Below are positions 28,370 to 64,000 of a stretch of 64,000 nt of DNA, one piece after another. The notes beneath the pieces were generated by a model. The model was not told the origin of the DNA. It saw only the letters and a list, made by a program, of their open reading frames with translations, and ran no database searches. Both the position numbers and the translations under genes were made by a program. How positions within the stretch are numbered: the stretch's first letter is position 1; each line of letters opens with the position of its first letter. The DNA comes from a bacterium. GTDB lineage: Bacteria > Bacteroidota > Bacteroidia > Bacteroidales > FEN-979. The DNA is taken from NCBI GenBank assembly GCA_043806735.1, contig JAZDGR010000178.1:2634-66633 (forward strand), in the 5' to 3' direction.

Positions 28370-28378
28370 AATAAATCG

Positions 28379-29696: not shown

Positions 29697-29699
29697 AGA

Positions 29700-30431: not shown

Positions 30432-30442
30432 ATAATAGTTCT

Positions 30443-38455: not shown

Positions 38456-40609
38456 ATGAGAATATGTATCCTGATCCTTTTTAGCCTCTCCTTATGGGGA
38501 GGTGTTGAATCCCAGAATCTCAAGGCTGTAGAAGATTATCTCCGTTTGGATGCCCGGGCAGATGACCCCTTGTATACCACCTATGCTGCTGCCATAAAGC
38601 GATCAAGGCTCTATGGAGATAAAGCCTACAAGATGGATTATTATTCTGATTGCCGGCCGGTTACCTATTCCTCCGATCAGGCGGGAAGTATGTTCTGCCT
38701 CTGGAAAGTGGATGAAGTGGTGATCCGGAATATCGGCGAGTATTTCAAAAAGCCTGTAGTGTTGTTTTCTTTTCCTGATATGGCAATTCTGGAGTATGAA
38801 CCTTTCAGGGGGATCCGGGTCCGGGAGACCTTTTTCGTTTACAGTTCCCGCATTACCCTGGTTGAGATGGAGGTTACTAACCTGGATCGAATTGTCCATG
38901 AAGTTGTCGCGTATCCGGTACTTTGGCTGGGAAATGATTCCCTTCGGATCGAAGGATTTGACAGTTTACACAACGGTTATATTACGACCCGGTATGAGAG
39001 TCCGTACCGATTGATCAGCAGTCTGAAGATGGAATACGGCTATCCCACGAAAACAAGGGACTTCTTTGCCAGTAATTTTCCGGTCGCTTCGTATGGGGGA
39101 TGTTCCGGTGACATGGATCAGTTCTATAATCTGATCAAGACCGATTTCTATTCCGCTACAAGGCTTGATTTATTAAATAATAAAGATACTGGTCTTGTTG
39201 ATTTTATATCACTTCAATTAAAGAAACGATTAAGGCCTGGTGAACGAGCTAATTTTAGGTATATCCGGGGAGTTCAGGATCAGAAAGAGGATCTGACAGC
39301 TCTAAAAGATGAAATTGATCAGCTCAGGAAGATTTATTTGAAGACCTTTTACGAAGACAATTTGATCCTGTTTTCAAAGATTCCACGGATCCGGTTCAAA
39401 ACGAAAGATGAAAAGCTGGTGTACCTCGGAGCTTTCAACCTGGTCCGCAGTTCAATGGTTCCTCCATCAGGAAAAACAACCTATAATTTCTATGTTTTCA
39501 GCCGCAATCCGCTCTGGGGATGGGGGCATGGACACCAGGTGCTGCATGAATCCCTCAGCATGCTTGCTTATGTATATATGGATCCCGAATCGGCCGAAGG
39601 ATCGCAACGGGTCTATATAGAGCAGCAGCGTGAAGACGGACTGATCGCTTACCGGCACGGGCCCAGGGGATTACAGGATTACCCGTATAAGAACAAGTCC
39701 ACTACCTCTGCTCCCTTTTTCAGCTGGATCAACTTGGAACTTTATCAGGTAAGTAAGGACAAAAAGTTTCTCGAAGAGGCTTATGTTGCTGGGTGCAAAT
39801 ATACCGATTGGCTGATCAGGAACAGAGACCAGGACGCGGACGGTACCTTTGAATGGGGACCTTATGGCATCATTGAGAATGTCAGGGACTGGTACAATGC
39901 TGTGTTTCAGGTATCTGCAGAAAGATATCTGGATGTGGACAAGGAGGATATTTCTGACGAACTTGAGTGTCTTGATCTTACACTAATGGTGATCAAGGAG
40001 GAAAAGAGTCTGACGAAGATGGCACAAATACTTGGAAAACAGGAAGAAGCAAAGGCCTGGATGGAAAAAGCCGAAAAAACCAGTAAACTTGTCAATGAAC
40101 GAATGTGGGATGATTCCACAGGATTTTACTACTCTGTCAACAAAGGCGATCATGGCTGGTTTTTCATGAACCGTGATCTCCGGCGGCAGGAACTCATCGG
40201 ATTTCTGCCGTTGTGGGCAGGGGTAGCTCCACCGGATAGAGCTTCGAGCCTGGTGGAAACCCTTACCGATACCACCCGGTTTTGGCGAAGGTATGGTATC
40301 CCTACCCTTTCAGCAGCAGATCCCTGGTACAGTCCGAATGTAGACTATTGCTGTAAATGGAACGGACCGGTTTGGTTATTATGGGACTACATGGTGTATG
40401 ATGGACTGAAGCAATATGGATACGATTCACTGGCAAATTTACTGGCCGGCAAAATGGTACATTGTGTAGTCACCCAACTGAAAAAGAATCACAATTATTG
40501 GGAATCTTACAGTCCTGATAATGAGGTATTAAACTGTCCATCAAATTACATTTGGGATGCGATTATGGCGAGGCTTCTGATCGAGGAGTACATGGAAAGT
40601 GAAAAGTGA
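38456..40609 (+). CDS. six-hairpin glycoside hydrolase (GH63 / trehalase-like)
   Basis: Signal peptide. The C-terminal (alpha/alpha)6-like motifs are DADGTFEW, RYGIPTLS and WNGPVWLLWDYMVYDGLKQYGY. Confidence 0.6.
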   Translation: MRICILILFSLSLWGGVESQNLKAVEDYLRLDARADDPLYTTYAAAIKRSRLYGDKAYKMDYYSDCRPVTYSSDQAGSMFCLWKVDEVVIRNIGEYFKKPVVLFSFPDMAILEYEPFRGIRVRETFFVYSSRITLVEMEVTNLDRIVHEVVAYPVLWLGNDSLRIEGFDSLHNGYITTRYESPYRLISSLKMEYGYPTKTRDFFASNFPVASYGGCSGDMDQFYNLIKTDFYSATRLDLLNNKDTGLVDFISLQLKKRLRPGERANFRYIRGVQDQKEDLTALKDEIDQLRKIYLKTFYEDNLILFSKIPRIRFKTKDEKLVYLGAFNLVRSSMVPPSGKTTYNFYVFSRNPLWGWGHGHQVLHESLSMLAYVYMDPESAEGSQRVYIEQQREDGLIAYRHGPRGLQDYPYKNKSTTSAPFFSWINLELYQVSKDKKFLEEAYVAGCKYTDWLIRNRDQDADGTFEWGPYGIIENVRDWYNAVFQVSAERYLDVDKEDISDELECLDLTLMVIKEEKSLTKMAQILGKQEEAKAWMEKAEKTSKLVNERMWDDSTGFYYSVNKGDHGWFFMNRDLRRQELIGFLPLWAGVAPPDRASSLVETLTDTTRFWRRYGIPTLSAADPWYSPNVDYCCKWNGPVWLLWDYMVYDGLKQYGYDSLANLLAGKMVHCVVTQLKKNHNYWESYSPDNEVLNCPSNYIWDAIMARLLIEEYMESEK

Positions 40610-40670
40610 ACAATGAACAATGAAGGTGAATAGGGAGTGGTTAGTAGTGGATAACGGGATGGGAGGTTAG
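40594..40670. repeat. heptamer array (GAANANT-type units decaying 3'-ward) overlapping the stop codon
   Basis: Units are ggaaagt gaaaagt gaacaat gaacaat gaaggt gaatagg gagtggt tagtagt ggataac gggatgg gaggtta. The gene's TGA is at 40607-40609. Confidence 0.8.
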
Positions 40671-46415: not shown

Positions 46416-46422
46416 AATTCAA

Positions 46423-46905
46423 TTAATAAAAGAGGTCTTTTTGCGCAAATGCCTTTTCGTGTTCCAGCAACCATTTTTTCCTCCACAAACCGCCTGCGTA
46501 GCCAACCAGTTTTCCATCGTTACCCAGCACCCGGTGACAGGGAATAATAATCCAGACAGGATTTTTTGCATCCGCCTGGCCGACTGCACGGAAAGCCTTC
46601 GGAACCCCAATCCGCTCGGCCAGGTGATGGTATGTAATCGTTTTCCCGTAAGTGATTTTTTCAAGTTCATACCACACCTTCATCTGAAATTCCGTACCGA
46701 GGATATCCAGTTTTACACTGAAACTTTGCCTGCTCCCCTCAAAATACTCTTTCAATTGAAGTACGGCTTCCCTTAAACAAAAGGGGGTGAACCACTTACG
46801 TATTTCTTTATCAATAAACTTAACACTTTGGATTCCCCGGTGTGTGCCGGTCACCTCCAGGCATCCAATCGGGGTTTTTAAGTAGGCCCGTTTTACCGAT
46901 TTCAT
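46423..46905 (-). CDS. ogt: methylated-DNA--protein-cysteine methyltransferase
   Basis: Active-site IIPCHRVLG and a helix-turn-wing segment, TYHHLAERIGVPKAFRAVG. Confidence 0.9.
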   Translation of the reverse strand: MKSVKRAYLKTPIGCLEVTGTHRGIQSVKFIDKEIRKWFTPFCLREAVLQLKEYFEGSRQSFSVKLDILGTEFQMKVWYELEKITYGKTITYHHLAERIGVPKAFRAVGQADAKNPVWIIIPCHRVLGNDGKLVGYAGGLWRKKWLLEHEKAFAQKDLFY

Positions 46906-46906
46906 T

Positions 46907-47119
46907 TTATTTGGTTTTTAATCTTTTTGCGCGGATTCCAAAGAAGAGCATCCCTCCTCCGAAAACGAGCATCAACAGTCCAGACCAGATGTTTACATTA
47001 ATTTCGAAAGATCGTTTGTATAGTTCCGGATCGGCTTCTGTGGTGAGTCCAAAAACAAGTAGCAACAACCCAAGAAGAGAGAACATAAATCCGATGGGCA
47101 ACCTGATATCTACTTCCAT
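46907..47119 (-). CDS. small two-TM membrane protein downstream of the symporter
   Basis: 70 aa with two hydrophobic helices. It is tightly packed between the symporter gene and ogt. Confidence 0.5.
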   Translation of the reverse strand: MEVDIRLPIGFMFSLLGLLLLVFGLTTEADPELYKRSFEINVNIWSGLLMLVFGGGMLFFGIRAKRLKTK

Positions 47120-47131
47120 AATCTTTCCTCC

Positions 47132-48847: not shown

Positions 48848-48940
48848 AAAAAGAAAGTTGATTGGGTATTGATACAAAGATATAAAAAGAAGGGAATTAA
48901 TAGCTTTGTACTACAATATAAGCACGAAAACCGGGATTGA

Positions 48941-52528: not shown

Positions 52529-52564
52529 GCGGTAAATGTAAGAAGAAAACCCTATTTTTGCGAG

Positions 52565-53623
52565 ATGAAGAAAAGCTGGCGCCTCATCTAACCTTGCTTA
52601 TCACATAAACATCGACTTGCTGGATATTGAATATGGCGAAGTCGAGAAAAACCAAAACCTTTCGGAGATCCTGGCTCCTTATGTATCATACCAGGTTATT
52701 GATAAATTAGCCAGGACAACGCGAAATATCTTTGATGTCAGGAAGATCAAGCCGGGGAACCAGTATGCCTTCATTACTACGCGTGATTCTGCGAAAACAA
52801 CTCTCTACTTTGTTTATGAGATTTCTGACACGGACTTTGTGGTCTATGATTTCCGTGATTCTTTGAGAGTATATAAAGACCGGAAGAAAGTCACCAGGAC
52901 GATAAACAGTGCATCGGGAACCATCACTTCCTCTCTCTGGAATACCTTCCTAGACCGTGGACTGGACATTAACCTTGCCTTGAAGTTATCAGATGTATAT
53001 GCCAAACTATAGATTTCTATGGACTTCAGAATGGAGACAATTTCAGGTTATTATATGAAAAGCTATCGATTAATACAAACCAGATAGGAATCGGAAACAT
53101 TATTGCCTGCGAATTTGAATCGGGGGGGAAGAAATTCTATGCTTTTTACTTTGTGCAGGACAGTGTGGGGGAGTATTTTGATGAACTGGCCCAGAGGTTG
53201 CAGCGCACTTTCCTCAAAGCACCTCTTCGTTTTTCGAGAATCAGCTCGCGATTTTCGCATGCACGTAAGCATCCGATCCTCAAGATCTACAGGCCGCATT
53301 TTGGGGTCGATTACAGTGCACCCCGTGGAACTCCCGTTGTCGCCCTGGGAGACGGCAAAGTGATTGAGGCCGGCTGGCATGGAGGATTCGGAAGGTATGT
53401 GAGAATCCGTCACAATAGTGTCTATTCAACCGGGTACGGTCATTTAAGCGGCTATGGACCGGGGATCAAAGCAGGTAAATATGTGAAACAAGGAGATGTC
53501 AGTGGTATTACCAGCATGCGCTGGAATTATCAAGGAGGGGATTTGAGGTTTCTGTCCTGGCCCATTCCTGTTCTCACCTGCGCAAGAAAATCCAGGATAG
53601 TGCAATCAGGTGTACCGGCCTGA
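52565..53623 (+). pseudogene. M23 peptidoglycan metalloendopeptidase, multiply disrupted
   Basis: MKKSWRLI* at 52565-52591. Homology resumes at 52617. There is a frameshift at about 53005 (..LSDVYA / TIDFYGLQNGD..). The HFGVDYSAP motif is intact, but the C-terminal HxH region is frameshifted after about 53500. Confidence 0.75.
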
Positions 53624-53625
53624 CC

Positions 53626-54153
53626 ATGAATAACTACTCTTTTTTGAATCCGTTGAAGCATTGGAAAGTGTGCCGGACCATCTGGAAAGAGAATCCGGAT
53701 GTTGTCATTTTGAACGGACGAAATGAATTAAAACTGGGAGCTATTTCTTCCTGTCTACTTCGGGTAAATAAAATCATTTACAGAAGAGGAAACGGAAAAC
53801 GGATCCGGCCACAACGGATTGCCGTTCTGGGTCGACTTTCGATGGAAAAGGGGGTCGACCTGGCCATCATGGCTTTTAAGAGAATCCGACAGGAGTTACC
53901 GGCTGCCAGGCTGGTCATCATCGGGGAAGGGGGAGAACGGCAAGCTCTGATGAGGTTATCGGATCAGTTTGGGATGGACGGGAGTGTCGAATTTGTCGGA
54001 TTCCAAGAAAACCCCACGGAAGTTCTTTCGGGGTGTTCAGTTCTGATGATCCCTTCGCGATGGGAAGGTTTTTCCTATGCAAAGCTGGAAGCCATGAGCC
54101 TCAAAATGCCTGTCGTTGCTTTCGGAGAAACAGGATTTGATTATTCCCGATAG
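53626..54153 (+). pseudogene. GT4-family glycosyltransferase fragment (internal and terminal deletions)
   Basis: ..PDVVILNGRNELKLGA.. joins directly to ..RIAVLGRLSMEKGVDLAIMAF..IIGEGGER..PSRWEGFSYAKLEAMS.. . It is 175 aa against the roughly 370 aa expected. Confidence 0.65.
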
Positions 54154-54179
54154 TGCAAACAAAGCTCCGATCTCCTTTC

Positions 54180-54541
54180 TCTCTTCAGGGCAGATCCGTT
54201 ATCTGGCTGACGCAGGATGGGAAATCGGATCCCACCTTGTTTCCCACAAATCGGTTATTCAACTTTCAGACCAGGATGTGAGAGATGAACTTGAACAATC
54301 CAAAACCCAACTGGAAGGAATCTCCGGGAAGCCAGTCGTTACAGTTGCTTATCCCTATGGTTCCTATGATGAACGGACTCTGCGAATGGTTAGGGAGATA
54401 GGATTCCATTTCGGATTAACGACTGATCAGCCTCCCCTTGGCAACTTTCCTTTGCTTGAACTCCCCAGAAACCATGTCAAAGGAGCCAGCTGGCACCATA
54501 GATTCTCTTTCACGCGCATTTTCCGGCATCATGGAGCTTAA
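54180..54541 (+). pseudogene. polysaccharide deacetylase (NodB-type) C-terminal half only
   Basis: ..GQIRYLADAGWEIGSHLVSHKSV..ELEQSKTQLEGISGKPVVTVAYPYGSYD.. is present. The N-terminal metal-binding half is absent. Confidence 0.6.
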
Positions 54542-55131
54542 GGTCTATACCAGAATTGACGATCCTGAGCTTGTTATCGGGTGGAAGAGCTTCGAAGAAG
54601 AGGCAGAAATTTTTCCTCAATCGAGGTATTCCTGGGCAAACTGTTGGTGGAAGCACATGTGGAGCAAACAATCCCTGTATACTATTGCAGTGAAAAATGA
54701 TGTGGTGGGAAGACTATATTCATTCGCTGCGAACAAGTGTAAGGCGGAATATCCGGGCCCGGCTCCGGAAGCTGGAGACTTCCGGGAAGGTAACATTCAG
54801 ATGCATTGATAAACAGACTGATTTCGAAGAAGTTGAACAGGTTCTGGGTACTATGTATGCTATCAGGTTAAGAGAATCAGGCCGAAATCCCAAAACTCGG
54901 GATGAACTTCTTTTCAGAAAAGAGTTGATCACTCAAGGATTTCAGGAGAAGTACCTCGTGCTTTTCCTTTTGCAGTATGTCAGGCATTTATCCCTGGAAG
55001 TTGGATTTCTCGGCAGGAGGAAAACCCCAGACGAAAGTTACCGTTTTCAGTTCATCACGAAGGCTACGGGCATTACTGTACCGTGTTCTGTTGACAAAGT
55101 CTGGAGTCCAGACAAATTCATGAAGAGATGA
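54531..55131 (+). pseudogene. CelD/BioF2-like GNAT acetyltransferase, frameshifted and internally deleted
   Basis: MELKVYTRIDDPELVIGWKSFEEEAEIFPQSRYSWANCWWKH.. continues in another frame as ..WEDYIHSLRTSVRRNIRARLRKLETSGKVTF.. . The expected middle part is missing. Confidence 0.55.
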
Positions 55132-56194
55132 TCGTTTTACTCCGGATTTTGAAAGCCGGACACTCATCGGAACCGGTATACCATTTACACCTTGGCTTGC
55201 AATCGAGGCAGGAAACGATCATCTCTTCATGGTGCTGGGCTTTGGATACCCAATGCGGGTCTGCTAGGATCGGTCTACCCAGGTTCACAAAATCGGCGTA
55301 GTTATGTTCAATCAAATAATTCGCGCGTTCAGGTGTGCGGATCTCATTCACCACTCCCACCGGTAGCCCAACCCTGGATTTGATCACGGTTCCGCTGTAA
55401 CAGATCCAGTTGAATTCGAATCCTTTGGGCGGACGGGGAAGACTTACCAGGGTGCCTCCGTGTGAAACATCAAGTAAATCCACTTTTTGCTGTTCCAGTA
55501 ACTGTGCAATGCGGATCCCATTTTCAAGTGCCGGAGAGTTTGCTCCCATGCGGTAAGCCACTAAAAAGGAATTCCCGCACCGGGTCCTGATCCCTTCGAT
55601 GATCTCACAAGCCAGCTTCATCCTGCCCCAAAGATCTCCTCCATATTCATCTTCCCTGTGGTTGTAATGACTTGACGCAAACTGACTGAGGAGGTAACCG
55701 TGGGCTCCATGAATCTGGACACCGTCAAATCCGGCCTGTTGTGCCCGTAACGCTGCCCGGATAAAATTATCCCGGATGGCGTGAATTTCTTCTAGGGTCA
55801 AAGCTCTTGATTTCGGGTTTTTTGGATCGGCGGAGGGTCCCAATGGCAACTGGGTGACACTTTCTGGTGCGACAAGTCCGGCATGATGCAGCTGAATCAG
55901 GGAGACGGCCCCAAAGGCTTTCACAACTCTGGAAATCTGGCTCAGTCCTTCAATTTGCTCATCAGACCATATTCCCAATTGGCAGGGAGCTAACCGGCCA
56001 TCATTTTGGATACAGGTTGCCTCGGTCACGATAATACCAGCACCCCCTTCAGCTCGTTCGTGGTAATGGTCAATGTTTCTTTTGGTGACCAATCCATCTT
56101 CCCCCGTATACTCAAAGCAGACCATGGGAGGCATGATCACCCGGTTTTTAACAGGGATGCCTTTCAATATAAAAGAGGTAAAAAGGGCCAGCAT
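55118..56194 (-). CDS. NADH:flavin oxidoreductase (Old Yellow Enzyme family) with C-terminal Cys cluster
   Basis: Contains PPMV.., HGAHGYLLSQF, and the C-terminal CLDCKPRCKWYTGSDECP. ATG 56194 is preferred because it abuts the upstream gene's stop at 56197. Confidence 0.85.
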   Translation of the reverse strand: MLALFTSFILKGIPVKNRVIMPPMVCFEYTGEDGLVTKRNIDHYHERAEGGAGIIVTEATCIQNDGRLAPCQLGIWSDEQIEGLSQISRVVKAFGAVSLIQLHHAGLVAPESVTQLPLGPSADPKNPKSRALTLEEIHAIRDNFIRAALRAQQAGFDGVQIHGAHGYLLSQFASSHYNHREDEYGGDLWGRMKLACEIIEGIRTRCGNSFLVAYRMGANSPALENGIRIAQLLEQQKVDLLDVSHGGTLVSLPRPPKGFEFNWICYSGTVIKSRVGLPVGVVNEIRTPERANYLIEHNYADFVNLGRPILADPHWVSKAQHHEEMIVSCLDCKPRCKWYTGSDECPAFKIRSKTIISS

Positions 56195-56196
56195 AC

Positions 56197-56706
56197 TTAA
56201 TTCGATTTCGTAAAAGGATGCGGATTTTTCCACATCTTCCAAATGAGAAAGACCGGAAAAAGAAACCAGGGAGCATTGGCCAGCAATACCAACGGCAGGT
56301 TGAGGGCCGGTGTGGGGCCCCAGATCTCTTCACTGCAGATGATGGTTACATTGGTAAAGAGTATAGACATCACAATGAACGTCGGGATCCGGATCCAGTC
56401 TTTTCCTTTACTAAACGCATAGATCGCAAAGGCGTAATAGGGGCCGAAAAGAATGACATCCAGCCAGATTGTCGCTTTCCACCAAACCGGACGGAGCCAC
56501 GGAAGGGGATCGAAGGTACTCCCCCACCAGTGTACCATATCCACTAGGAAAGGTAAGGGCCAGACCGGGTACTTAAAGTTTCCTGGATCTTGAATAACAA
56601 GTTGCTCAAGATCAACGATGTACGTTATAAAGAACAGGTTTAATAAGAAAAATACCAGGTAGATGTAATCCACCTTTCGCTGTTTTAGAGGAATCGGGGT
56701 GCGCAT
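56197..56706 (-). CDS. EXPERA-domain membrane protein (TMEM97 / sigma-2-receptor / EBP-like; DUF2781)
   Basis: Four TM helices. The segment GPYYAFAIYAFSKGKDWIRIPTFIVMS matches, from memory, the TMEM97 segment ..ATYAFLKGSCKWIRTPAIIYS.. . Starts at ATG 56706. The ORF-track TTG start at 56751 lies inside a repeat array. Confidence 0.65.
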   Translation of the reverse strand: MRTPIPLKQRKVDYIYLVFFLLNLFFITYIVDLEQLVIQDPGNFKYPVWPLPFLVDMVHWWGSTFDPLPWLRPVWWKATIWLDVILFGPYYAFAIYAFSKGKDWIRIPTFIVMSILFTNVTIICSEEIWGPTPALNLPLVLLANAPWFLFPVFLIWKMWKNPHPFTKSN

Positions 56707-56721
56707 ATGTGGTTTAATTAA

Positions 56722-56750
56722 CAGTTTGCAGTTGGCAGTTGCAGTTGGCA
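56722..56750. repeat. heptamer array cagtttg cagttgg cagttg cagttgg
   Basis: It lies 16 nt upstream of the EXPERA start on the minus strand, and 14 nt downstream of the SDR stop. Its complement, CCAACTG, recurs at 58896-58923. Confidence 0.8.
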
Positions 56751-56763
56751 AAGGTAAAATAAA

Positions 56764-57588
56764 TCAAAGATTTTTCATCTTCTCACGGCCGGTCCGGGCC
56801 ATCTGACATGCGAGGTTCAGCCTGAATCCCGAAAAGTTGGAGATGAACGCCCCCAACCTGACCGAAGGGTCTGAGTACATGATAGGTTTTGGTTTAAGGA
56901 TCAGCCGGATCAATTGATCGGCCACATCTTCAGGCGTTCTGGGTTTGGTGAATTTCCGGGTCAGCCAGTTTTGTTTCCGGCTCATGAGAAAGTCCTGCGA
57001 AACTTCCCCGATCCGTGATTCGGGCTTAGAGTCTGTCAGAATGTACCCGGGGAAATACTCACTGACGATAATCCCTGAACCGGTCCATTCGGCTTGGATG
57101 GTGCGGGTCCATGCCGAAAACGCAGCTTTCGAGCACACATAAGGAGCATAAAAAGGGATCCCCATCATAAACCCGGGAGAGCCGATGTTGATAATATGCA
57201 ATCCTCCATGATCTTTCGATAGGGACACCGCTTCCTGTGTTGCGGCAACTGCTCCGATCAGGTTGGTCTGGATGGTTTTCAGGAGATCTGCGGAAGAGAC
57301 TGTTTCAGCCGGTGAGACAATAATACAGGCTGCATTGTTGACCAATACATCTAATCTGCCAAAATGTGCGATTACGTCCCTGACCATTTGCTTTGCCTGA
57401 AGTTCGTCGTGCATATCCACCCGGATGACAAAGGCACCGGTCATCTTTTCTGCCAGTTCATCAAGCTTATCTTTTCGACGGGCTGCAAGGGCCACCCGGG
57501 CGCCTGCCCGCTCAAAAGCCAGGGCAGCTGCCGCACCTATTCCCGAAGAAGCGCCTGTGATAAGAATGATCTTGTCGCGGATATACAT
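56764..57588 (-). CDS. SDR family oxidoreductase
   Basis: ITGASSGIGAA, NNAA and YVCSKAA motifs. Confidence 0.88.
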   Translation of the reverse strand: MYIRDKIILITGASSGIGAAAALAFERAGARVALAARRKDKLDELAEKMTGAFVIRVDMHDELQAKQMVRDVIAHFGRLDVLVNNAACIIVSPAETVSSADLLKTIQTNLIGAVAATQEAVSLSKDHGGLHIINIGSPGFMMGIPFYAPYVCSKAAFSAWTRTIQAEWTGSGIIVSEYFPGYILTDSKPESRIGEVSQDFLMSRKQNWLTRKFTKPRTPEDVADQLIRLILKPKPIMYSDPSVRLGAFISNFSGFRLNLACQMARTGREKMKNL

Positions 57589-57609
57589 GAATTACGAATT
57601 ACGAATTAG
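57589..57609. repeat. heptamer array gaattac gaattac gaattag, abutting the SDR start codon
   Basis: On the minus strand it reads cctaattc gtaattc gtaattc ATG. The ATTCGTAATTCGT core is the same as at 29669-29696. Confidence 0.85.
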
Positions 57610-57688
57610 GCAAAAATCGAGATTTCAATCGTAAATTTAAAATTATACTTCGTAAATTCATAAGTTTGTATGAACCAAATACGAGATT

Positions 57689-58834
57689 ATGAGGACAAGT
57701 ATACACCTGCTGCTCTTGCTGATCCTCGGATCAGGAGCGATCATCTCCTGCCAGAATTCAGGAAACCGGAATGCATCATCCGATACTTTAACACTTTCCG
57801 TCATGAAAACACCATTTGGCATTGCCGACAACAAAGAGGTTTTCCTCTATACACTCACTAACAAACATGCGATCACAGTAAAGATCACCAACTATGGCGC
57901 CATCATCACCCAGATATGGATTCCGGACAAATCAGGAAGACCGGGGGATATTGTGCTAGGATATGACAGCCTGCAGGATTACATTCAAAATAATCCCTAT
58001 TTCGGAGCCATTGCGGGAAGGTATGCCAACCGGATCGCCAAAGGGAAGTTTTCGCTGGATGGAAAAACTTATCAACTGGTAAAAAACAACGGGAATAACC
58101 ATCTGCATGGTGGAGCTAAGGGACTGGACAAAGTCGTGTGGGATGCCCACGAATTTTCGGATTCGCTGGTAACCGGGGTAGTTCTGACGTACCTGAGCAA
58201 GGATGGAGAAGAAGGGTATCCCGGAAATTTGAACATTCAGGTCACCTACTCATTAAATAACCTGGATGAACTGGAAACGCTTATCGAAGCTACAACGGAT
58301 AAACCTACCCCTGTTAATCTTTGCAACCACACCTATTTCAATCTTAGCGAAGCCGACACCAATATTCTGGGGCACATTCTTTCTATCGTAGCAGCAGAAC
58401 TCACCGATGTAAATGATGAGCTGATTCCTACAGGTACGCTTCCCCCAATTGCAGGAACGCCTATGGATTTCAATATACCTCATCAAATCGGTCAGGGGAT
58501 CTCTGACGTTAAGGGCGGGTATGACCACAACTATGTGTTGTCGAAAACTCCCGGAGCATTTGCCTTTGCTGCGACCTTGATAGATCCACGGTCTGGACGC
58601 GAAGTCAAGATCTATACGACCCAACCCGGGATTCAGTTCTACTCAGGGAATTTCCTGGATGGCACCATCCAAGGAAAGGGCGGGAAAATTTACCAAAAAC
58701 ATTATGGATTATGCCTTGAAACGCAGCATTTCCCAGACTCCCCGAACCAGCCAGCCTTTCCGAATACCATTCTGAGACCAGGGGAGGAGTATAAGGAGGT
58801 GACGGTGTACAAGTTTAGGGTGACTGATCAATGA
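57689..58834 (+). CDS. galM: aldose 1-epimerase (galactose mutarotase) with signal peptide
   Basis: GRYANRIA, NNGNNHLHGG and CLETQHFPDSPN motifs. Confidence 0.9.
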   Translation: MRTSIHLLLLLILGSGAIISCQNSGNRNASSDTLTLSVMKTPFGIADNKEVFLYTLTNKHAITVKITNYGAIITQIWIPDKSGRPGDIVLGYDSLQDYIQNNPYFGAIAGRYANRIAKGKFSLDGKTYQLVKNNGNNHLHGGAKGLDKVVWDAHEFSDSLVTGVVLTYLSKDGEEGYPGNLNIQVTYSLNNLDELETLIEATTDKPTPVNLCNHTYFNLSEADTNILGHILSIVAAELTDVNDELIPTGTLPPIAGTPMDFNIPHQIGQGISDVKGGYDHNYVLSKTPGAFAFAATLIDPRSGREVKIYTTQPGIQFYSGNFLDGTIQGKGGKIYQKHYGLCLETQHFPDSPNQPAFPNTILRPGEEYKEVTVYKFRVTDQ

Positions 58835-58930
58835 AGAGAGAACAGAGAACAGTGAACAGTGAAAAGTGAATAGTGAATAATGACTGGTGACCGGTAACTG
58901 CCAACTGCCAACTGGTAACTGCTAACTTAC
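58833..58930. repeat. 14-unit heptamer array spanning the whole galM-galK convergent spacer
   Basis: Units are gaagaga gaacaga gaacagt gaacagt gaaaagt gaatagt gaataat gactggt gaccggt aactgcc aactgcc aactggt aactgct aacttac. Both stop codons (58832-34 and 58922-24) lie in or at the array. Confidence 0.92.
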
Positions 58931-60085
58931 TTTTCTGACGCCGTCGGAGACTTCGGCGAGGTAGAAATCGGCTTTCAGGCCGGTTTTCAGGTGATAATTC
59001 CTTCCAACCTGATCCATGAAGTGATCTACTGTTTCATTCTTCACTAGGTTTACTGTACAACCTCCAAATCCAGCTCCGGTCATCCGGGCGCCCAGTACTC
59101 CGTTGATTTTCTGCGCTTCTTCTACGAGCGTATCCAACTCGATTCCTGTCACTTCATAATTCTCTTTCAGCGATTCGTGTGAAGCGTTCATCAACGCGCC
59201 AAACTGCAGGATATCATGGTTCCAAAGGCAGGAGACCGAATTCAGCACACGTTGGTTTTCAGAGAGTACATGGCGGGCTCTGCGGCGAATGACTTCATCG
59301 GGAATCTGATCCTGGATTTTGTAAAACTGCATAAAACTGATCTCTCCCAACTGACTGATATCGAATAATCTGCTAAGATAAGAGACCGCGAGTTGACATT
59401 CGGCCACCCGTTCATTGTATTTGGAATCGGTTAACCCCCGCTGCTTATTGGTATTTGCGATGACCAGGCTGATTCCATCCAGGATCAGGGGCACCATCTT
59501 GTTTTCAAGGGTTCGGCAGTTCAGGAAAATAGCGTGATCCTTTTCCCCCATCCCGACAGCAAACTGATCCATGATCCCGCAGTTTACACCGACAAACTGG
59601 TTCTCCGCTTTTTGCGAAAGTCTGATCAATTCCAGCAGGCTGATTTCCGTCTTCAGAATTGCATTTAAAGCAAAAGCCGTCACCATCTCAATGGATGCCG
59701 AGGAGGATAAACCGGCGCTATTGGGGATGGTTCCCGAGTAGAGCAACTCCATCCCGGGGATACGAATGTTGCGCTGTTTGAATTGATCAAAAATTCCCAA
59801 CGGGTAATTGACCCACTGCTTTTCAACCCTGTTGGAAATATCCGCAACCGGGATCTCTGCCCGGAAATCAAAATTCGTTGAAGCAAGCCGGATAAGGGGC
59901 CCTTCTATCCTCCGGATGATAAGATTAATTCCGAACTGAAGGGCACATGGCAGAACAAAGCCTCCGTTGTAATCGGTATGTTCACCGATCAAGTTTACGC
60001 GACCCGGGGCGAAAAACGGGGCAGGTTGATTTTCAGGTTGTCCGAAGAGCTGGAAATACATCCTGTAAAGTGCATCATGGTTCAT
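58922..60085 (-). CDS. galK: galactokinase
   Basis: GRVNLIGEHTDYNGG and NSAGLSSSAS (GHMP kinase) motifs. Confidence 0.93.
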   Translation of the reverse strand: MNHDALYRMYFQLFGQPENQPAPFFAPGRVNLIGEHTDYNGGFVLPCALQFGINLIIRRIEGPLIRLASTNFDFRAEIPVADISNRVEKQWVNYPLGIFDQFKQRNIRIPGMELLYSGTIPNSAGLSSSASIEMVTAFALNAILKTEISLLELIRLSQKAENQFVGVNCGIMDQFAVGMGEKDHAIFLNCRTLENKMVPLILDGISLVIANTNKQRGLTDSKYNERVAECQLAVSYLSRLFDISQLGEISFMQFYKIQDQIPDEVIRRRARHVLSENQRVLNSVSCLWNHDILQFGALMNASHESLKENYEVTGIELDTLVEEAQKINGVLGARMTGAGFGGCTVNLVKNETVDHFMDQVGRNYHLKTGLKADFYLAEVSDGVRKVS

Positions 60086-60155
60086 ACAAAGAGTTCGATT
60101 TACGGCCGAAGGTAGAAAATTTTTTACTTTTGCACCCGGATTAACCTACATTCTA

Positions 60156-62687
60156 ATGAAAACATATTTCAAGATTTTTCTCTTATTGACTCTTTTTGTA
60201 TTTGGAGCAGCTCCCTCTTTTGCACAGGACGAGGGAATCTTATCCCTGAACGGAACCTGGCAGTTCCGGCAACAAGGATCCACTAAAATCTACAATGCAG
60301 AGGTTCCGGGGCTGGTTCAACTTGTTTTAAAACAAAACCGGGTTATTGCGGATCCCTTTTATGCCACCTATGAAGAGAAGCTGCAATGGATCAGTGACAC
60401 GGGATGGGTTTATGAGAAGTATTTTCAACTCGACCGCGAGTTTTTTGCCAACCGCCATATTGAGCTGGTATGTGAAGGCCTGGACACTTACGCTAATGTG
60501 TATATCAATGATTCCCTGGTGATTACGGCTGATAACATGTTCAAATCATGGGTTGCCAACATCAAGCGGTTTCTTCGAATGGGATATAATAAAATCAAGA
60601 TTGAATTTCCTTCGATTACCAAATTGAACAAGGCTTTCTACCATCAGTTACCTTATAAGCTACCCGGTGATGAAAAGGTGGTTTGCCGCAAAGCGGCTTA
60701 TCAGTTTGGCTGGGATTGGGGACCCCGGTTTGTTACCATGGGGATATGGAAACCGATATATATTCGCTACTGGAAATATGTCAATGTTCTGGGAGTCAAT
60801 TTTATCCAGAAAAGTCTGACCGACTCGGTCGCGAAGATGGTCGCTGCTTTTGTCGTAAACTCAACGCTCTCTGACACAGCCGAATTCAAGCTTCTCTATG
60901 ATACAAGCGTTTTCTTCACGGGGAAAGAGAAACTGAACAAAGGGATCAATGCCATCCGGATTGATTTTGACCTTACCAATCCCAAGAGGTGGAATCCCAA
61001 CGGCATGGGAGCTCCGGTACTTTACAATTTAGGCTATCAGGTATTTTTCGCGGGGTATCTGGAAGGTGAAGGCCATCAGAAAATCGGATTGCGAACCGTT
61101 GAGTTGGTTCAGGAACCCGACTCCATTGGCCGTTCTTTTTATCTGAAGATCAACGGGAAGCCGGTTTTTGTGCGGGGGGCTAACTACATTCCGATGGACA
61201 ATTTTCCAACCCGTGTTACAGACTCTATGTACAATGCATTACTCACTGATGCAGACCTTGCGAACATGAATATGCTCCGGGTATGGGGAGGAGGTATTTA
61301 TGAACACGATACTTTTTATGACTTGTGCGATAAGAAGGGAATTATGGTGTGGCAGGATTTCATGTTTGCCAATGCTATGTATCCCGACTCTCCCGAATTC
61401 CTCAACAGCGTCAGAGATGAAGTAATCCAGAATATCGTCAGGCTGCGCCGGCACCCCTGTATTGTCCTCTGGTGCGGGAACAATGAGATAGACGAAGGCT
61501 GGCATAACTGGGGGTGGGTGAAAGAATACGGGTACAGCAAGGACGATTCTACCCGAATTTACAACAACTACAAGAAGATGTTCCGAGAGGTGATCCCTTA
61601 CGCGGTGATCAAGCATGATACCCTGCGTCCGTATATCTCCACAAGCCCAAAATACGGCTGGGGGAAAACGTCCAGTCTCACGGAAGGGGATATGCACTAC
61701 TGGGGAGTCTGGTGGGGAAAAGAGCCTTTTGAGATGTACAACAAAAAGGTCGGCCGATTCATGTCGGAATATGGATTCCAGGGATTTCCCGATTATACAA
61801 CGATTGAGAAGTTTACCCGTGAGGCTGATCGCCAGTTGGGGTCGATTGTCATGAAAGCCCATCAGAAACATCCTGTCGGATACGAAACGATTGACGAATA
61901 CATGCGGCGGGATTACAAGGTTCCCACAGATTTTAAAATGTACGGGTACGTAAGTCAACTTTTGCAGGCCGACGGTATTAAGACTGCTATCGATGCCCAC
62001 CGCAGAGCCAAGCCGGCTTGCATGGGAACCATGTACTGGCAATTGAACGATTCATGGCCTGTTGTATCCTGGTCTTCTATTGATTACTATGGAAAGAAGA
62101 AGGCCTTGTATTATGCCGTGAAACGCGAGTACAGGGATTTCTTTGTCGAGCCGGTCATGAAGGGTGACCGGTTGAAGGTTTACGCAACCTTTGATGAACC
62201 GGATCCGCAAAAAGCAAATTTCCGGGTGGTCCTTTCTGATTTTAACGGACGGGTTCTCTGGCAGCAGCAAACGGTATACACATTTGCAGCAGACAGAACG
62301 GAAATTGTGGTAGATACAAATCTTTCATCAACCCTGGAAGGAGCTGACAAGTCCTCTCTTTTCGTTTATGCCGAGATTCAAAATATCCTGGGAGTAAGGG
62401 CTACTAACATTTGCTACTTCGTGCCTCCCAAGGATATGAAGCTGGAGAAAGCAGAGATTGAAGTGACCGTGCAGGAGATCAAGGAAGGGTATATGATTGA
62501 CCTTTACACATCAAAACTTGCCAAAGGCGTATATTTGTCAACTCCTGTGAACGGAGAATTCACTGACAACTATTTCGACCTGCTCCCCTTTGAGGCAAAG
62601 AGAATCCAATTCAAGACAACAGAGCGAGTCGATGACTTTGCCAGTAAAATCAACTTAATCACCCTGTTAGACTCATTTACACCATGA
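60156..62687 (+). CDS. GH2 beta-mannosidase with signal peptide
   Basis: WCGNNEI (acid/base) and MSEYGFQ (nucleophile) motifs. 843 aa. Confidence 0.85.
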   Translation: MKTYFKIFLLLTLFVFGAAPSFAQDEGILSLNGTWQFRQQGSTKIYNAEVPGLVQLVLKQNRVIADPFYATYEEKLQWISDTGWVYEKYFQLDREFFANRHIELVCEGLDTYANVYINDSLVITADNMFKSWVANIKRFLRMGYNKIKIEFPSITKLNKAFYHQLPYKLPGDEKVVCRKAAYQFGWDWGPRFVTMGIWKPIYIRYWKYVNVLGVNFIQKSLTDSVAKMVAAFVVNSTLSDTAEFKLLYDTSVFFTGKEKLNKGINAIRIDFDLTNPKRWNPNGMGAPVLYNLGYQVFFAGYLEGEGHQKIGLRTVELVQEPDSIGRSFYLKINGKPVFVRGANYIPMDNFPTRVTDSMYNALLTDADLANMNMLRVWGGGIYEHDTFYDLCDKKGIMVWQDFMFANAMYPDSPEFLNSVRDEVIQNIVRLRRHPCIVLWCGNNEIDEGWHNWGWVKEYGYSKDDSTRIYNNYKKMFREVIPYAVIKHDTLRPYISTSPKYGWGKTSSLTEGDMHYWGVWWGKEPFEMYNKKVGRFMSEYGFQGFPDYTTIEKFTREADRQLGSIVMKAHQKHPVGYETIDEYMRRDYKVPTDFKMYGYVSQLLQADGIKTAIDAHRRAKPACMGTMYWQLNDSWPVVSWSSIDYYGKKKALYYAVKREYRDFFVEPVMKGDRLKVYATFDEPDPQKANFRVVLSDFNGRVLWQQQTVYTFAADRTEIVVDTNLSSTLEGADKSSLFVYAEIQNILGVRATNICYFVPPKDMKLEKAEIEVTVQEIKEGYMIDLYTSKLAKGVYLSTPVNGEFTDNYFDLLPFEAKRIQFKTTERVDDFASKINLITLLDSFTP

Positions 62688-62731
62688 TATCCCGCAGGCA
62701 ATTACCGTTGGCACGCTGATGACGCGGATAA

Positions 62732-62920
62732 AACGCGGGTTTTGGCCCCCTGACCGTCCCGTCAGAACTGAAGCAATAGCCTGTCCAATTGCATCTGCTG
62801 AATCCCCAAGCCTCCAATTTCCGGAATGCAGATGTGGTGCTAACAGCCGACTGCGTGCCCTTTGCCATGGGTAATTTCCACGCCCGTTTCCTGAAAGGGA
62901 AATCGCTGGCTATTCAATAA
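62732..62920 (+). pseudogene. fragment of a 4Fe-4S-type protein (..WPVQLHL..ADCVPFA..FH..FLKGK.. family) with an in-frame TAG
   Basis: My own translation is ..SELKQ*PVQLHLLNPQASNFRNADVVLTADCVPFAMGNFHARFLKGKSLAIQ*. TAG at 62777-62779 sits where relatives (recalled from memory) have Trp. Both N- and C-terminal parts of the family are absent. Confidence 0.5.
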
Positions 62921-63002
62921 AAAATGTTGATATCGCGGAAATCTGTAAAAAAATCAGAAAATCAGACCCAAAATTGTTAATAACCCCTATTTTTGCCAGG
63001 AA

Positions 63003-63813
63003 CATTTCGGACTACAGTACTATAAAAGACAGGGATTTATTCCAGGGGATTTAGAAGGTGAATCGGTTTCCAAGATCCTCGAGTACGCCTGCGACGATTG
63101 GTGCATAGCAGAGCTGACAAAAGCCATGGGTAAAGAGAATGAATAACCAGTGGTTTGCGCCTTTTGATCCCTATGAGGTCAATTTCAATTACACCGAAGC
63201 AAATGCCTGGCAATACAGATTCTATGTTCCTCAGGATATTTCCGGACTGATCAACCTCATGGGTGGAACCAAACAGTTTTCGAAACGACTGGATGACCTC
63301 TTCTCTGCGAGTACCGAAACCACCGGCCGGAATCAGGCAGATATTACGGGACTTATCGGTCATTATGCTCATGGAAATGAACCGAGTCATCATATGGCAT
63401 ACCTTTACAACTATGTGGGACAACCATGGAAAACGCAGGAGCTCGTACATCAAATCATGCAAAATTTTTACACCAACACCCGGGATGGTTTATACGGAAA
63501 CGAAGATTGCGGACAACTATCGGCCTGGTATGTATTCAGCGCCCTGGGCTTTTATCCGGTAACTCCAGGGTCTGATTTTTATGCGATCGGTACACCCTTG
63601 TTCCCCTTTGCCAAGATGGAGCTGGAGAACGGAAAAACTTTCACAATTAAAGCAAACAACCTGCATAGTGAGAATCGCTATATTCAATCCTGCACGCTAA
63701 ACGGAAGAAACCATGAGGCACCAGCCATAAGCCATGAGGAGATCATGACCGGAGGAGAACTTCGTTTCGAAATGGGACCCAAGCCAAATAAGGATTGGGG
63801 AGTCTCGTTGGCA
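63003..63813 (+). pseudogene. GH92 alpha-mannosidase, C-terminal third only, with internal deletion/frameshift
   Basis: ..GFIPGDLEGESVSKILEYACDDWCIAEL..GKENE* runs to the TAA at 63144-46. In the +1 frame it continues ..PFDPYEVNFNYTEANAWQYRFYVPQD..YAHGNEPSHHMAYLY..GNEDCGQLSAWYV..LNGR..GGELRFEMGPKPNKDWG. About 500 N-terminal residues are absent, and no in-frame stop occurs before the window end. Confidence 0.75.
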
Positions 63814-63848
63814 GATACGGGATACGGGATACGAGTAAGATTATCCGG
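63814..63848. repeat. heptamer array gatacgg gatacgg gatacga gtaagat tatccgg
   Basis: It lies exactly where the GH92 homology ends, which is the expected stop region. Confidence 0.8.
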
Positions 63849-64000
63849 CATCCGGGATCTGAAAGCACATTCTTTCTCTATTCCGGACCTTTCACCATTT
63901 ACGAGACCTCGGATCTGCAAGCCTTTGCCCAGAAAGAGGGCGGAGAAGCAAGTTTCCTCATCGAATCCCCGTTCCGGAAGATTCCAAAGAACCGAAAGAT

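What the first reader, a model, noticed from the sequence alone, without database searches (positions are those of the whole stretch)
58833..58930. Entire 98-bp spacer between convergent galM and galK consists of 14 phased heptamers that morph from GAANAGT to AACTGNN
The array runs stop codon to stop codon: the galM TGA is at 58832-34 and the galK stop at 58922-24 lies within the last units. The period of exactly 7 is maintained through 14 units while the unit sequence drifts stepwise: gaagaga, gaacaga, gaacagt x2, gaaaagt, gaatagt, gaataat, gactggt, gaccggt, aactgcc x2, aactggt, aactgct, aacttac. TGA recurs every 7 nt from 58853 to 58888, so all three plus-strand frames are closed repeatedly. 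There is no inverted repeat that could form a terminator for either convergent gene. Keeping the phase while the sequence changes argues for selection on, or a generating mechanism tied to, the 7-bp period itself.
Basis: seen in the sequence. Interest (0 to 1): 0.65.

Follow-up and report, generated by a model that had tools for sequence, protein, structure and literature searches.

The report
Heptamer simple-repeat spacer between galM and galK
The 87 bases between two facing sugar-metabolism genes consist of fourteen 7-base tandem repeats, which is a clean example of a repeat class already described in cyanobacteria, Xanthomonas, Beggiatoa and some Bacteroidetes whose function is still unknown, not a new kind of element.

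Summary
Window 58833-58930 is 14 in-phase heptamers running from the galM stop (TGA, 58832-34) to the galK stop (58922-24). Lag-7 identity is 0.79 against 0.27 +/- 0.045 in shuffles, the highest for any 98-nt window in the 64 kb.

It is not unique. Period 7 is the preferred tandem period throughout the window: 6 arrays against 0-1 for other periods. The other arrays have unrelated units and also sit at gene boundaries. Uncultured Bacteroidales relatives carry 7-8-nt arrays directly after galK, with different units.

The "morph" is a single-switch cline in every column, bridged by near-palindromic units (GACTGGT, GACCGGT). The two halves have opposite polarity (CAGT then ACTG), and each starts at its own gene's stop codon.

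In relatives, such inverted array pairs fold into very stable segmented hairpins (z -5 to -7). In this window the fold is no better than shuffles (z about -0.3).

Best reading: a slippage-generated heptanucleotide simple-sequence repeat (STRR / TAACTGA-like), mostly tolerated filler, with at most a weak role at the transcripts' 3' ends.

The class is published (MacGregor 2015; Rehm 2015; Mrazek 2007 as cited there). Verdict: new member of a known kind, with modest interest.

The parts
57689..58834 (+). galM (aldose 1-epimerase); its TGA stop at 58832-34 is the first triplet of the first repeat unit when the array is read as TGAAGAG
   Evidence: ORF list; Pfam Aldose_epim E 7e-92 covering residues 53-375 of 381; units read from the stop
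58832..58881 (+). Purine-rich on + (A24 G13 C3 T7). Unit order is graded: GAAGAGA, GAACAGA, GAACAGT x2, GAAAAGT, GAATAGT, GAATAAT.
   Evidence: TRF 58832-58877, period 7, 6.6 copies, 87% matches; adjacent-unit Hamming sum 5 against 9.4 for permuted order, p = 7e-4; composition
58882..58895 (.). Two bridging units, GACTGGT and GACCGGT. They are near-palindromic (ACCGGT at 58890-95). They lie 2-3 substitutions from array 1 units and 1-3 from array 2 units. The polarity switches here from CAGT to ACTG without loss of phase.
   Evidence: Hamming matrix and offset test: the in-phase offset gives 4/7 matches across the junction, other offsets 0-2; column view
58896..58930 (-). Array 2: five units, AACTGCC-type on the + strand. 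Read in galK sense from its stop codon it is TAGCAGT TACCAGT TGGCAGT TGGCAGT. In the + frame that starts at a TAA it reads TAACTGC / CAACTGC / CAACTGG, each one mismatch from the published TAACTGA repeat. It overlaps the galK stop and last two codons.
   Evidence: TRF 58896-58927, period 7, 4.6 copies, 88% matches; sense-strand reading
58922..60085 (-). galK (galactokinase), convergent with galM
   Evidence: ORF list; Pfam GalKase_gal_bdg, GHMP_kinases_N and GHMP_kinases_C; relatives align through residue 386-387 of 387
56718..56750 (-). Second copy of the CAACTGC family. It lies between the stop of an SDR gene (56764) and the start of an EXPERA-family gene (56706). It is a 23-nt, 91% inverted copy of 58896-58918.
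   Evidence: the repeat finder I1; pattern search gives 3 matches against 0.01 expected; sequence
40593..40625 (+). Second copy of the GAANAGT family (GAAAAGT x2, GAACAAT x2). It spans the TGA stop of a glycoside-hydrolase gene (38456-40609).
   Evidence: Pfam MGH1-like_GH

Best explanation
The spacer is a heptanucleotide simple-sequence repeat. It belongs to the class described as long SSRs (Mrazek), as STRR in cyanobacteria and as TAACTGA repeats in Beggiatoaceae, cyanobacteria and Bacteroidetes.

How it most likely arose (inferred). Slipped-strand mispairing of 7-nt units occurred in the only DNA here that tolerates it, the gap between two stop codons. Expansion started at, and includes, each gene's stop codon. 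Point substitutions then spread to neighbouring units by further local duplication. This gives a cline in every column and preserves the phase automatically.

The two halves have opposite polarity (CAGT on galM's sense strand, CAGT on galK's sense strand) and are joined by near-palindromic units.

The preference for 7 nt is a property of the genome's replication and repair machinery, not of this locus.

Functionally the array is probably tolerated filler that separates two convergent genes. Any termination or RNA-stabilising effect from the weak CAGU/ACUG ladder is secondary.
For: Shown:
- The array is real and far beyond chance.
- Period 7 is specifically enriched in the window: 6 arrays against 0-1 for periods 4-15, and 11 TRF rows of period 7. 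Units are unrelated between loci. Intergenic DNA, but not coding DNA, has lag-7/14/21 peaks.
- Short spacers in the window are often made wholly of such arrays: 29670-29699, 30399-30442, 56707-56763 and 58835-58921, plus an octamer case at 28370-28478.
- Arrays intrude into coding ends and into tolerant coding stretches. The last codons and the stop of the Leu/Phe-tRNA-protein transferase gene lie inside the (GACGTAA)n array. An (AATTCAG) x5.6 array lies after a signal-peptide-like N-terminus.
- Unit order is graded (p < 1e-5 for all 14 units, 7e-4 for the first 7) and every column switches once.
- No fold beyond shuffles on either strand, and no Rfam match.
- Turnover among relatives is high. 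The nearest syntenic relative, L081, has no heptamer arrays in 11 kb. At the conserved junction between galK and a convergent 925-aa gene, seven MAGs carry arrays with different units and seven others have 0-13 nt or array-free spacers.

From the literature:
- Heptanucleotide repeats are the commonest long-SSR class, and polymerase slippage over about 7 nt has been proposed (PMC4679880, PMC4692102).
- In other Bacteroidetes, close relatives have shorter repeat-free spacers with the same gene neighbours (PMC4679880).
Against: - The same unit families recur at separate loci in the window: CAACTGC twice, with a 91% inverted 23-mer, and GAANAGT three times. Purely local seeding does not predict this.
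- Arrays with a CAGT core lie on the sense strand of the gene whose stop they abut in 8 of 10 strict cases across the window and relatives. This matches the orientation reported for TAACTGA and hints at strand-specific selection.
- In relatives, inverted array pairs form hairpins with z of -5 to -7, and the arms co-vary between lineages. That is hard to see as neutral.
- Copy-number polymorphism, the direct signature of active slippage, could not be tested because no same-species sequence was found.
Confidence: 0.6

Rival explanations
1. Segmented ('ladder') hairpin acting as a bidirectional 3'-end element. The CAGU units of one half pair with the ACUG units of the other in 7-nt register, around the ACCGGU centre. 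The resulting structure stops or stabilises both convergent transcripts in a genome that lacks canonical hairpin-plus-U terminators.
For: - The minimum-energy fold on both strands is this ladder.
- It is flanked by a purine-rich run on the 5' side and UUACUUUUCU on the 3' side.
- Canonical terminator-like sites are not enriched in the window: 16 found against 19 expected, and 30 against 22.
- Inverted array pairs in convergent spacers of relatives fold far better than shuffles: L021 z -5.5, L014 -5.7, L089 -6.8, L022 -5.3, L085 -5.0. Different arm sequences stay complementary across lineages at the same junction.
- Inverted pairs of heptamer arrays close to upstream ORFs are reported in Xanthomonas (PMC4692102).
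Against: - In the window the fold is indistinguishable from shuffles (z -0.22 and -0.36, with 70-72 of 200 shuffles folding as well).
- The arms are complementary in only 4 of 7 positions, and two arbitrary heptamers share a complementary 4-mer with a probability of roughly 0.2.
- Rungs of 4 bp separated by 3x3 loops are not a credible terminator stem.
- The other arrays in this genome are single and unstructured (z -1.3, -0.1, +0.1).
- Relatives with the same junction manage with 0-3 nt spacers.
Confidence: 0.15
2. Periodic binding platform for a trans-acting protein on RNA or single-stranded DNA, for example a cold-shock, S1 or CsrA-like protein as proposed for TAACTGA. One protomer binds per 7 nt. 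Orientation depends on position: CAGU after stop codons and ACUG before start codons.
For: - The same unit families are dispersed to several loci in one genome.
- Orientation bias: 8 sense against 2 antisense near stops, and 2 of 2 ACTG-sense near starts. This agrees with MacGregor's forward-before-start and reverse-after-stop pattern.
- The arrays are predicted to be unstructured, so they would be accessible.
- Deleting heptamer repeats altered reporter expression in Nostoc (bioRxiv 10.1101/2022.06.06.494920).
Against: - Units at other loci in the same window share no core (ATTCGTC, AATTCAG, GAATTAC, GATACGG), so one factor cannot read them all.
- The sample for the orientation bias is small and partly non-independent.
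- No candidate protein was identified here or in the literature.
- Relatives lack the arrays at homologous junctions.
Confidence: 0.15
3. Rho-loading (rut-like) tract for read-through and antisense transcripts. Each transcript that runs past its own array enters the other array on its C-rich, G-poor, unstructured strand.
For: The minus-strand RNA across 58835-58881 is pyrimidine-rich and G-poor, because the + strand there has A24 G13 C3 T7. No structure is predicted.
Against: - The galM-side read-through tract (58882-58921) has C11 and G11, so it has no skew.
- In relatives the sense strand of the proximal array is already C > G (TCAGTCT in L021), so there is no consistent skew rule.
- A 7-nt spacing of YC dimers does not match the spacing described for Rho primary sites (from my own knowledge).
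Confidence: 0.05

Closest known systems
TAACTGA heptamer direct repeats of Beggiatoaceae, cyanobacteria and five Bacteroidetes (MacGregor 2015, PMC4679880)
   Same: - Tandem 7-nt units in intergenic DNA that abut start or stop codons.
- The right half here reads TAACTGC / CAACTGC / CAACTGG / TAACTGC, one mismatch from TAACTGA.
[quoted passage not shown]
- Other heptamer repeats share the same spacers.
- Close relatives have shorter, repeat-free spacers.
- The forward strand is full of stop codons.
   Different: - No exact TAACTGA unit is present.
- Most published sets lie just upstream of start codons, whereas this one lies between two stop codons.
- Here the array changes unit sequence along its length and is fused in phase to a second family (GAANAGT).
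Cyanobacterial STRR heptamers (Mazel et al. 1990; units CCCCAGT, CAACAGT and TTGGTCA, recalled from memory; their existence in Calothrix PCC 7601 is cited in PMC4692102)
   Same: - Genome-wide families of tandem heptamers in non-coding DNA with no known function.
- STRR3 (CAACAGT) differs from the GAACAGT unit here by one base, and the CAGT core is shared.
   Different: - Different phylum.
- STRR arrays were defined by hybridisation and PCR fingerprinting in heterocystous cyanobacteria.
- No evidence here for hundreds of copies, because only 64 kb was seen.
G-rich heptamer SSRs GGGAATC (Xanthomonas) and GGGGA(T/C)T (Nostoc) (Rehm et al. 2015, PMC4692102)
   Same: - Intergenic, on average 28 nt from the upstream ORF.
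- Extensive length and sequence variation between close species.
- 70-75 cases per genome of two arrays in convergent orientation on opposite strands, the same inverted-pair layout as here and in L021, L014 and L089.
- Relative L003 carries (GGGGATT/GGAGATT) x25.6.
   Different: - The array here has no G-tracts and cannot form a G-quadruplex.
- Its two halves share only a 4-nt core.
REP/BIME extragenic palindromes of enterobacteria (from my own knowledge)
   Same: They occupy the same niche: short repeated sequences in 3' intergenic spacers, often between convergent genes, in inverted arrangements.
   Different: - REPs are about 35-nt imperfect palindromes with stable stems, spread by RAYT transposases.
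- This is a tandem 7-nt array without a significant stem.

Membership tests
Heptanucleotide long simple-sequence repeat (LSSR / STRR-like) | Head-to-tail copies of a 7-nt unit, longer than chance allows | tested here: met
   14 units; lag-7 identity 0.79 against 0.27 +/- 0.045 in shuffles; TRF scores 57 and 43
Heptanucleotide long simple-sequence repeat (LSSR / STRR-like) | Non-coding location | tested here: met
   Lies between the galM stop and the galK stop, overlapping only the stops and two codons
Heptanucleotide long simple-sequence repeat (LSSR / STRR-like) | Many arrays per genome, with period 7 predominant over other periods | tested here: met
   Within the 64 kb only: 6 arrays of period 7 against 0-1 for periods 4-15; 11 TRF rows of period 7; intergenic lag-7/14/21 peaks. 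The whole genome was not available.
Heptanucleotide long simple-sequence repeat (LSSR / STRR-like) | Copy-number and sequence variability between close relatives | tested here: inconclusive
   Between species there is complete turnover. Within the species it was not testable, because no same-species contig or adequate read set was found.
TAACTGA direct repeats (MacGregor 2015) | Unit is exactly TAACTGA in two or more tandem copies | tested here: not met
   Units are TAACTGC, CAACTGC, CAACTGG, TAACTGC and TAACTTA. There is no exact TAACTGA.
TAACTGA direct repeats (MacGregor 2015) | Orientation: forward before start codons, reverse after stop codons | tested here: met
   58896-58921 is reverse relative to galK, whose stop it abuts. 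56718-56750 is forward, 15 nt before a start codon.
Intrinsic (Rho-independent) terminator | Stable G+C-rich stem-loop | tested here: not met
   The pattern scan finds none in the spacer. The fold has z -0.22 and -0.36 with only 4-bp rungs.
Intrinsic (Rho-independent) terminator | U-tract directly after the stem; mapped 3' ends | not testable with these tools
   A U-rich run (UUACUUUUCU) follows on the + strand, but it lies in galK coding sequence. No RNA data exist for this organism.
Inverted paired heptamer arrays (Xanthomonas type, Rehm 2015) | Two arrays of one unit family on opposite strands in close proximity | tested here: inconclusive
   The halves share only the CAGT/ACTG core (4 of 7 positions in either orientation). 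The pattern is clearly met in relatives L021, L014, L089 and L085.
Phase-variation (contingency) SSR | Repeat lies in an ORF or promoter, so that unit number switches expression | tested here: not met
   Located between two stop codons of convergent genes.
Described structured RNA family (Rfam) | Match to a covariance model | tested here: not met
   No hit at E <= 1 in 56000-61000 and none at gathering score in the whole window.

The most novel reading that the evidence does not exclude
In a set of uncultured Bacteroidales, inverted pairs of 7-8-nt arrays are modular 3'-end elements. Their CAGU/ACUG (or GUCUGA/UCAGAC) rungs build ladder hairpins, and slippage tunes the length and strength of those hairpins. 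They serve as bidirectional terminators or RNA stabilisers in place of canonical hairpin-plus-U terminators. On this reading the window's galM-galK spacer is a young or decaying member. The sense-strand orientation rule, shared with the published TAACTGA repeats, would then reflect an RNA-level function common to three phyla.
Probability: 0.15. Interest if true: 0.6.

Novelty: new member of a known kind. Interest (0 to 1): 0.3.

Why it matters
Heptamer tandem repeats have been known since 1990, and nobody knows why 7 nt is favoured or whether the arrays do anything. This locus adds nothing categorically new, but it is an unusually legible example.

- It preserves a full cline of unit variants.
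- It shows a polarity switch through a palindromic unit.
- Both arrays are anchored on stop codons.

The comparative set found here is more useful than the locus itself. One conserved convergent junction in seven MAGs carries different but internally complementary arrays. That gives a natural experiment for testing whether such arrays are selected as hairpins or are mutational by-products.

Tried and rejected
1. Same-species comparison for copy-number variation. No exact GalK product is on record. The best GalK relative is 68% identical in genome contigs and 65% in metagenome contigs. Only two groundwater runs hold traces of the organism, and their contigs do not span the spacer.
2. RNA evidence for 3' ends. 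No RNA run holds the sequence.
3. Rfam and tRNA scans found nothing.
4. Canonical terminator and sigma-70 promoter scans. No terminator was found in the spacer. Two 9/12 promoter-like matches lie inside the array, but they are at chance level and use a consensus that Bacteroidetes do not use.
5. Stop-codon shield. I asked whether arrays are oriented so that the sense strand carries stop triplets. Rejected: the galK-sense strand is open for about 70 codons after its TAG, and (TCAGTCT)n in L021 has no stops.
6. C>G skew (rut) rule for orientation. Rejected as a general rule, because L021 contradicts it.
7. The segment 56741-58895, flanked by inverted CAACTGC arrays, as an inversion or insertion cassette. 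Inverting it gives no more natural gene order, and relatives give no support.
8. A MITE or other mobile element. There are no terminal repeats or further copies apart from the array families themselves.
9. Literature. One search failed on a formatting error. Searches for a terminator role of heptamer repeats found nothing.
Full report
OBSERVATION

It is fourteen heptamers in one register:
GAAGAGA GAACAGA GAACAGT GAACAGT GAAAAGT GAATAGT GAATAAT GACTGGT GACCGGT AACTGCC AACTGCC AACTGGT AACTGCT AACTTAC.

- The flanking ORFs are an aldose 1-epimerase (57689-58834, +; Pfam Aldose_epim, E 7e-92) and a galactokinase (58922-60085, -; GalKase_gal_bdg plus GHMP kinase N and C domains).
- The non-coding gap is 58835-58921 (87 nt). 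The first unit overlaps the galM TGA, and the last two units overlap the galK TAG and its last two codons. Unit 14 is a weak member.
- Lag-7 identity over the 98 nt is 0.79, while every other lag except 14 is 0.20-0.29. In 20,000 shuffles the mean is 0.27 (sd 0.045, maximum 0.56). No other 98-nt window in the 64 kb comes near; the next best is 0.63, at another heptamer array.
- Tandem Repeats Finder splits the region into two arrays: TGAACAG x6.6 and AACTGCC x4.6.

IT IS ONE OF MANY

- With a fixed criterion (18 of 21 matches at lag p) the window holds six arrays of period 7, one of period 8 and none of periods 4-6 or 9-13. TRF lists eleven period-7 rows.
- The units are unrelated: ATTCGTC (29670), GACGTAA/G (30377), AATTCAG (33473), GAAAAGT/GAACAAT (40593), CAGTTGG (56722), GAATTAC (57589), GATACGG (63814).
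- Intergenic DNA as a whole shows identity peaks at lags 7, 14 and 21 that coding DNA lacks.
- Several short spacers are made almost wholly of such arrays:
  - 29670-29699, stop to start;
  - 30399-30442, stop to stop;
  - 56707-56763, stop to start;
  - 28370-28478, start to start, here with phased octamers AAATNNNG.
- Arrays also run into coding sequence where that is tolerated. The last six codons and the TAA of the Leu/Phe-tRNA-protein transferase gene (29700-30398) are array units. (AATTCAG) x5.6 lies just after a signal-peptide-like N-terminus of ORF 33366-36845. A GAACAGT-like run lies inside the adh_short domain of ORF 27563-28369.

So the 7-nt period, not any particular sequence, is what these arrays share.

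ANATOMY OF THE FOCAL ARRAY

- Written column by column, every position switches only once along the array. For example, column 3 reads AAAAAAACCCCCCC and column 5 reads AAAAAAAGGGGGGT.
- The summed Hamming distance between neighbouring units is 19, against 44 for permuted order (p < 1e-5). For the first seven units alone p = 7e-4.
- A direct path of single and double substitutions links the two ends: GAACAGT > GAATAGT > GACTGGT > AACTGGT > AACTGCT > AACTGCC.
- This is the ordinary footprint of local unit duplication plus point mutation. The phase is kept because neither process can change it, so no selection on the phase is needed.
- The two halves also have opposite polarity. Read in each gene's own sense from its own stop codon, galM is followed by TGAAGAG AGAACAG AGAACAG TGAACAG TGAAAAG... 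and galK by TAGCAGT TACCAGT TGGCAGT TGGCAGT TACCGGT CACCAGT. Each array begins exactly with its gene's stop codon, and both sense strands carry NNNCAGT.
- The bridging units contain the palindrome ACCGGT (58890-95). They read almost the same on both strands, which is how the polarity can flip without a phase break.
- The direct comparison and the reverse-complement comparison of the two consensus units both give 4 of 7 matches. 'One drifting array' and 'two inverted arrays fused in phase' therefore cannot be told apart from this locus alone.

STRUCTURE

- The minimum-energy fold of either strand is a ladder of 4-bp CAGU/ACUG rungs with 3x3 loops around a small central hairpin. It is no more stable than shuffled sequence: -17.8 kcal/mol on both strands, z -0.22 and -0.36.
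- The terminator pattern scan finds nothing in the spacer.
- Terminator-like sites are not enriched anywhere in the window.

RELATIVES

- No sequence from the same species was found. The best GalK relatives are uncultured Bacteroidales MAGs at 68% or lower identity. Traces of the organism occur in two groundwater metagenomes.
- The closest syntenic relative is L081 (GalK 65%, GalM 64%). It has another gene between galK and galM, a small ordinary hairpin after galK, and no heptamer array in 11 kb.
- Other Bacteroidales do have 7-8-nt arrays directly after the galK stop, with other units:
  - L021: (TCAGTCT)6 ... (ACTGCCG)5
  - L020: (CAGTCTN)3 ... (ACTGCCG)3
  - L014 and L089: (GGTCTGA)n ... 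(CTTCAGA)n
  - L019: (GGCAGTA)n
  - L015: (GCAGTCTT)n
  - L085: (AATGCTTG)n
  - L002: (GCGGACAN)n
  - L082: (GGAGGAT)n
- Fourteen loci share one junction, galK convergent with a 925-aa gene.
  - The seven whose neighbour protein is 72-79% identical all have array-filled spacers of 60-180 nt, with different units.
  - Of the seven at about 55% identity, six have spacers of 0-13 nt or overlapping genes, and one has an array-free 84-nt spacer.
- In the array-bearing group the two arrays are inverted and fold into long segmented hairpins far beyond shuffles: L021 z -5.5, L014 -5.7, L089 -6.8, L022 -5.3. L015 reaches -2.4, L020 -1.6 and L019 -0.1. Another pair in L085 has z -5.0.
- Across lineages the arm sequences differ but remain complementary.

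This is the most interesting thing found. It concerns the relatives, not the window, where all the arrays tested are unstructured.

ORIENTATION AND FAMILIES

- Among strict arrays (three or more exact CAGT or ACTG cores at period 7 or 8) lying within 40 nt of a stop codon, eight have CAGT on the sense strand of that gene and two do not. Both arrays next to start codons have ACTG in sense.
- This matches the published TAACTGA pattern, forward before starts and reverse after stops. The sample is small and partly non-independent.
- Unit families recur within the window. 56718-56740 is a 91% inverted copy of 58896-58918 (3 matches against 0.01 expected). GAANAGT-type runs occur at 40593 and at 28231-28265.
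- Purely local seeding does not predict such sharing. This remains unexplained.

WHAT IS KNOWN

- MacGregor (2015, PMC4679880) described TAACTGA tandem repeats in Beggiatoaceae, cyanobacteria and five Bacteroidetes. They abut start or stop codons, share spacers with other heptamer repeats, and are absent from close relatives' shorter spacers.
- That paper summarises Mrazek et al. (2007). Heptanucleotide repeats are the most abundant long-SSR class in most genomes, possibly because about 7 nt interact with the polymerase and favour slippage.
- Rehm et al. (2015, PMC4692102) described about 185 GGGAATC arrays per Xanthomonas genome. They lie on average 28 nt from the upstream ORF and vary between close species. 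In 70-75 cases per genome two arrays lie in convergent orientation on opposite strands. The paper also describes GGGGA(T/C)T arrays in Nostoc.
- A preprint reports expression effects from deleting heptamer repeats upstream of Nostoc rec genes, with no binding partner identified.
- The cyanobacterial STRR units (CCCCAGT, CAACAGT, TTGGTCA; Mazel 1990) are recalled from memory. CAACAGT is one base from the unit here.

MECHANISM

Most likely (0.6): a slippage-generated heptanucleotide SSR. It expanded from the stop-codon edges into a formerly very short convergent spacer and diversified by substitution plus local duplication. It is tolerated as filler.
- Shown: periodicity, genome-level preference for period 7, graded unit order, lack of structure, intrusion into tolerant coding ends, and turnover among relatives.
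- Inferred: slippage itself, seeding at the stop codons, and neutrality.

Rivals:
- A weak ladder hairpin serving both 3' ends (0.15).
- A periodic protein-binding platform on RNA or ssDNA (0.15).
- A rut-like tract (0.05).

VERDICT

This is a new member of a known kind, and interest is about 0.3.

Noticed in passing
window 28370-28478: The whole divergent (start-to-start) spacer between an SDR gene (-) and a class-III aminotransferase gene (+) is made of phased octamers. They drift from AAATCGTG, AAATGGTG and AAATGGCG to AAATTAAG, AAATTGGG and AAATTAGG. This is the same kind of 'morphing' as the focal array, but with period 8.
   Followed up: partly
window 29670-29693 and 30377-30426: The Leu/Phe-tRNA-protein transferase gene (29700-30398, GTG start) is flanked by arrays of opposite polarity: (ATTCGTC) x3.4 right after the upstream stop and (GACGTAA/G) x6 at its 3' end. 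The second array supplies the gene's last six codons and its TAA stop.
   Followed up: partly
window 33473-33521: (AATTCAG) x5.6-7 lies inside ORF 33366-36845, a GH116/GDE-like glycoside hydrolase, directly after a signal-peptide-like N-terminus. It appears to be a heptamer array tolerated in coding sequence, unless the true start lies downstream.
   Followed up: partly
window 28231-28266 (- strand): A GAACAGG GAACAGT TAACAGT GAACAGC run of the same family as the focal array lies inside the adh_short domain of SDR ORF 27563-28369, encoding ...RNREQLTVNSEKL...
   Followed up: partly
window 56718-56740 vs 58896-58918: These are 23-nt inverted copies (91% complementary) of the CAACTGC array family, 2.2 kb apart, bracketing the divergent SDR-galM gene pair. 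The same-family arrays are dispersed, and the cause is unknown.
   Followed up: partly
window 57589-57608: (GAATTAC) x2.9 abuts the ATG of SDR gene 56764-57588 on its 5' side, so the 5' leader ends in three perfect heptamers.
   Followed up: no
L021 7135-7223; L014 7143-7199; L089 6158-6290; L022 7132-7210; L085 7517-7572: Convergent spacers in related Bacteroidales MAGs hold inverted pairs of 7-8-nt arrays. These fold into long segmented hairpins (z -5.0 to -6.8). At one conserved junction (galK convergent with a 925-aa gene), the arm sequences differ between MAGs but remain complementary.
   Followed up: partly
L003 8217-8394; L008 11960-12143: Very long arrays occur in relatives. (GGGGATT/GGAGATT) x25.6 has the same unit as the G-quadruplex-forming Nostoc repeat of Rehm et al. 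2015. (ATTTGGTG) x23.6 is followed by (AACTTCCT) x6.8.
   Followed up: no
runs X1, X2 on window 58832-58883: In two groundwater metagenomes, many unrelated contigs (depth 3-13) match only the GAACAGT array part of the spacer at 80% identity or more. The organism itself is barely present there (one 151-nt contig with 1 difference, at 58543-58693). GAACAGT-like arrays therefore seem common in that community.
   Followed up: no
window 1-20000 and 44001-64000: Hairpin-plus-T-run terminator-like sites are no more frequent than in shuffled sequence (16 found against 19 expected; 30 against 22), and they do not mark gene ends. No tRNA or Rfam family occurs in the 64 kb.
   Followed up: partly
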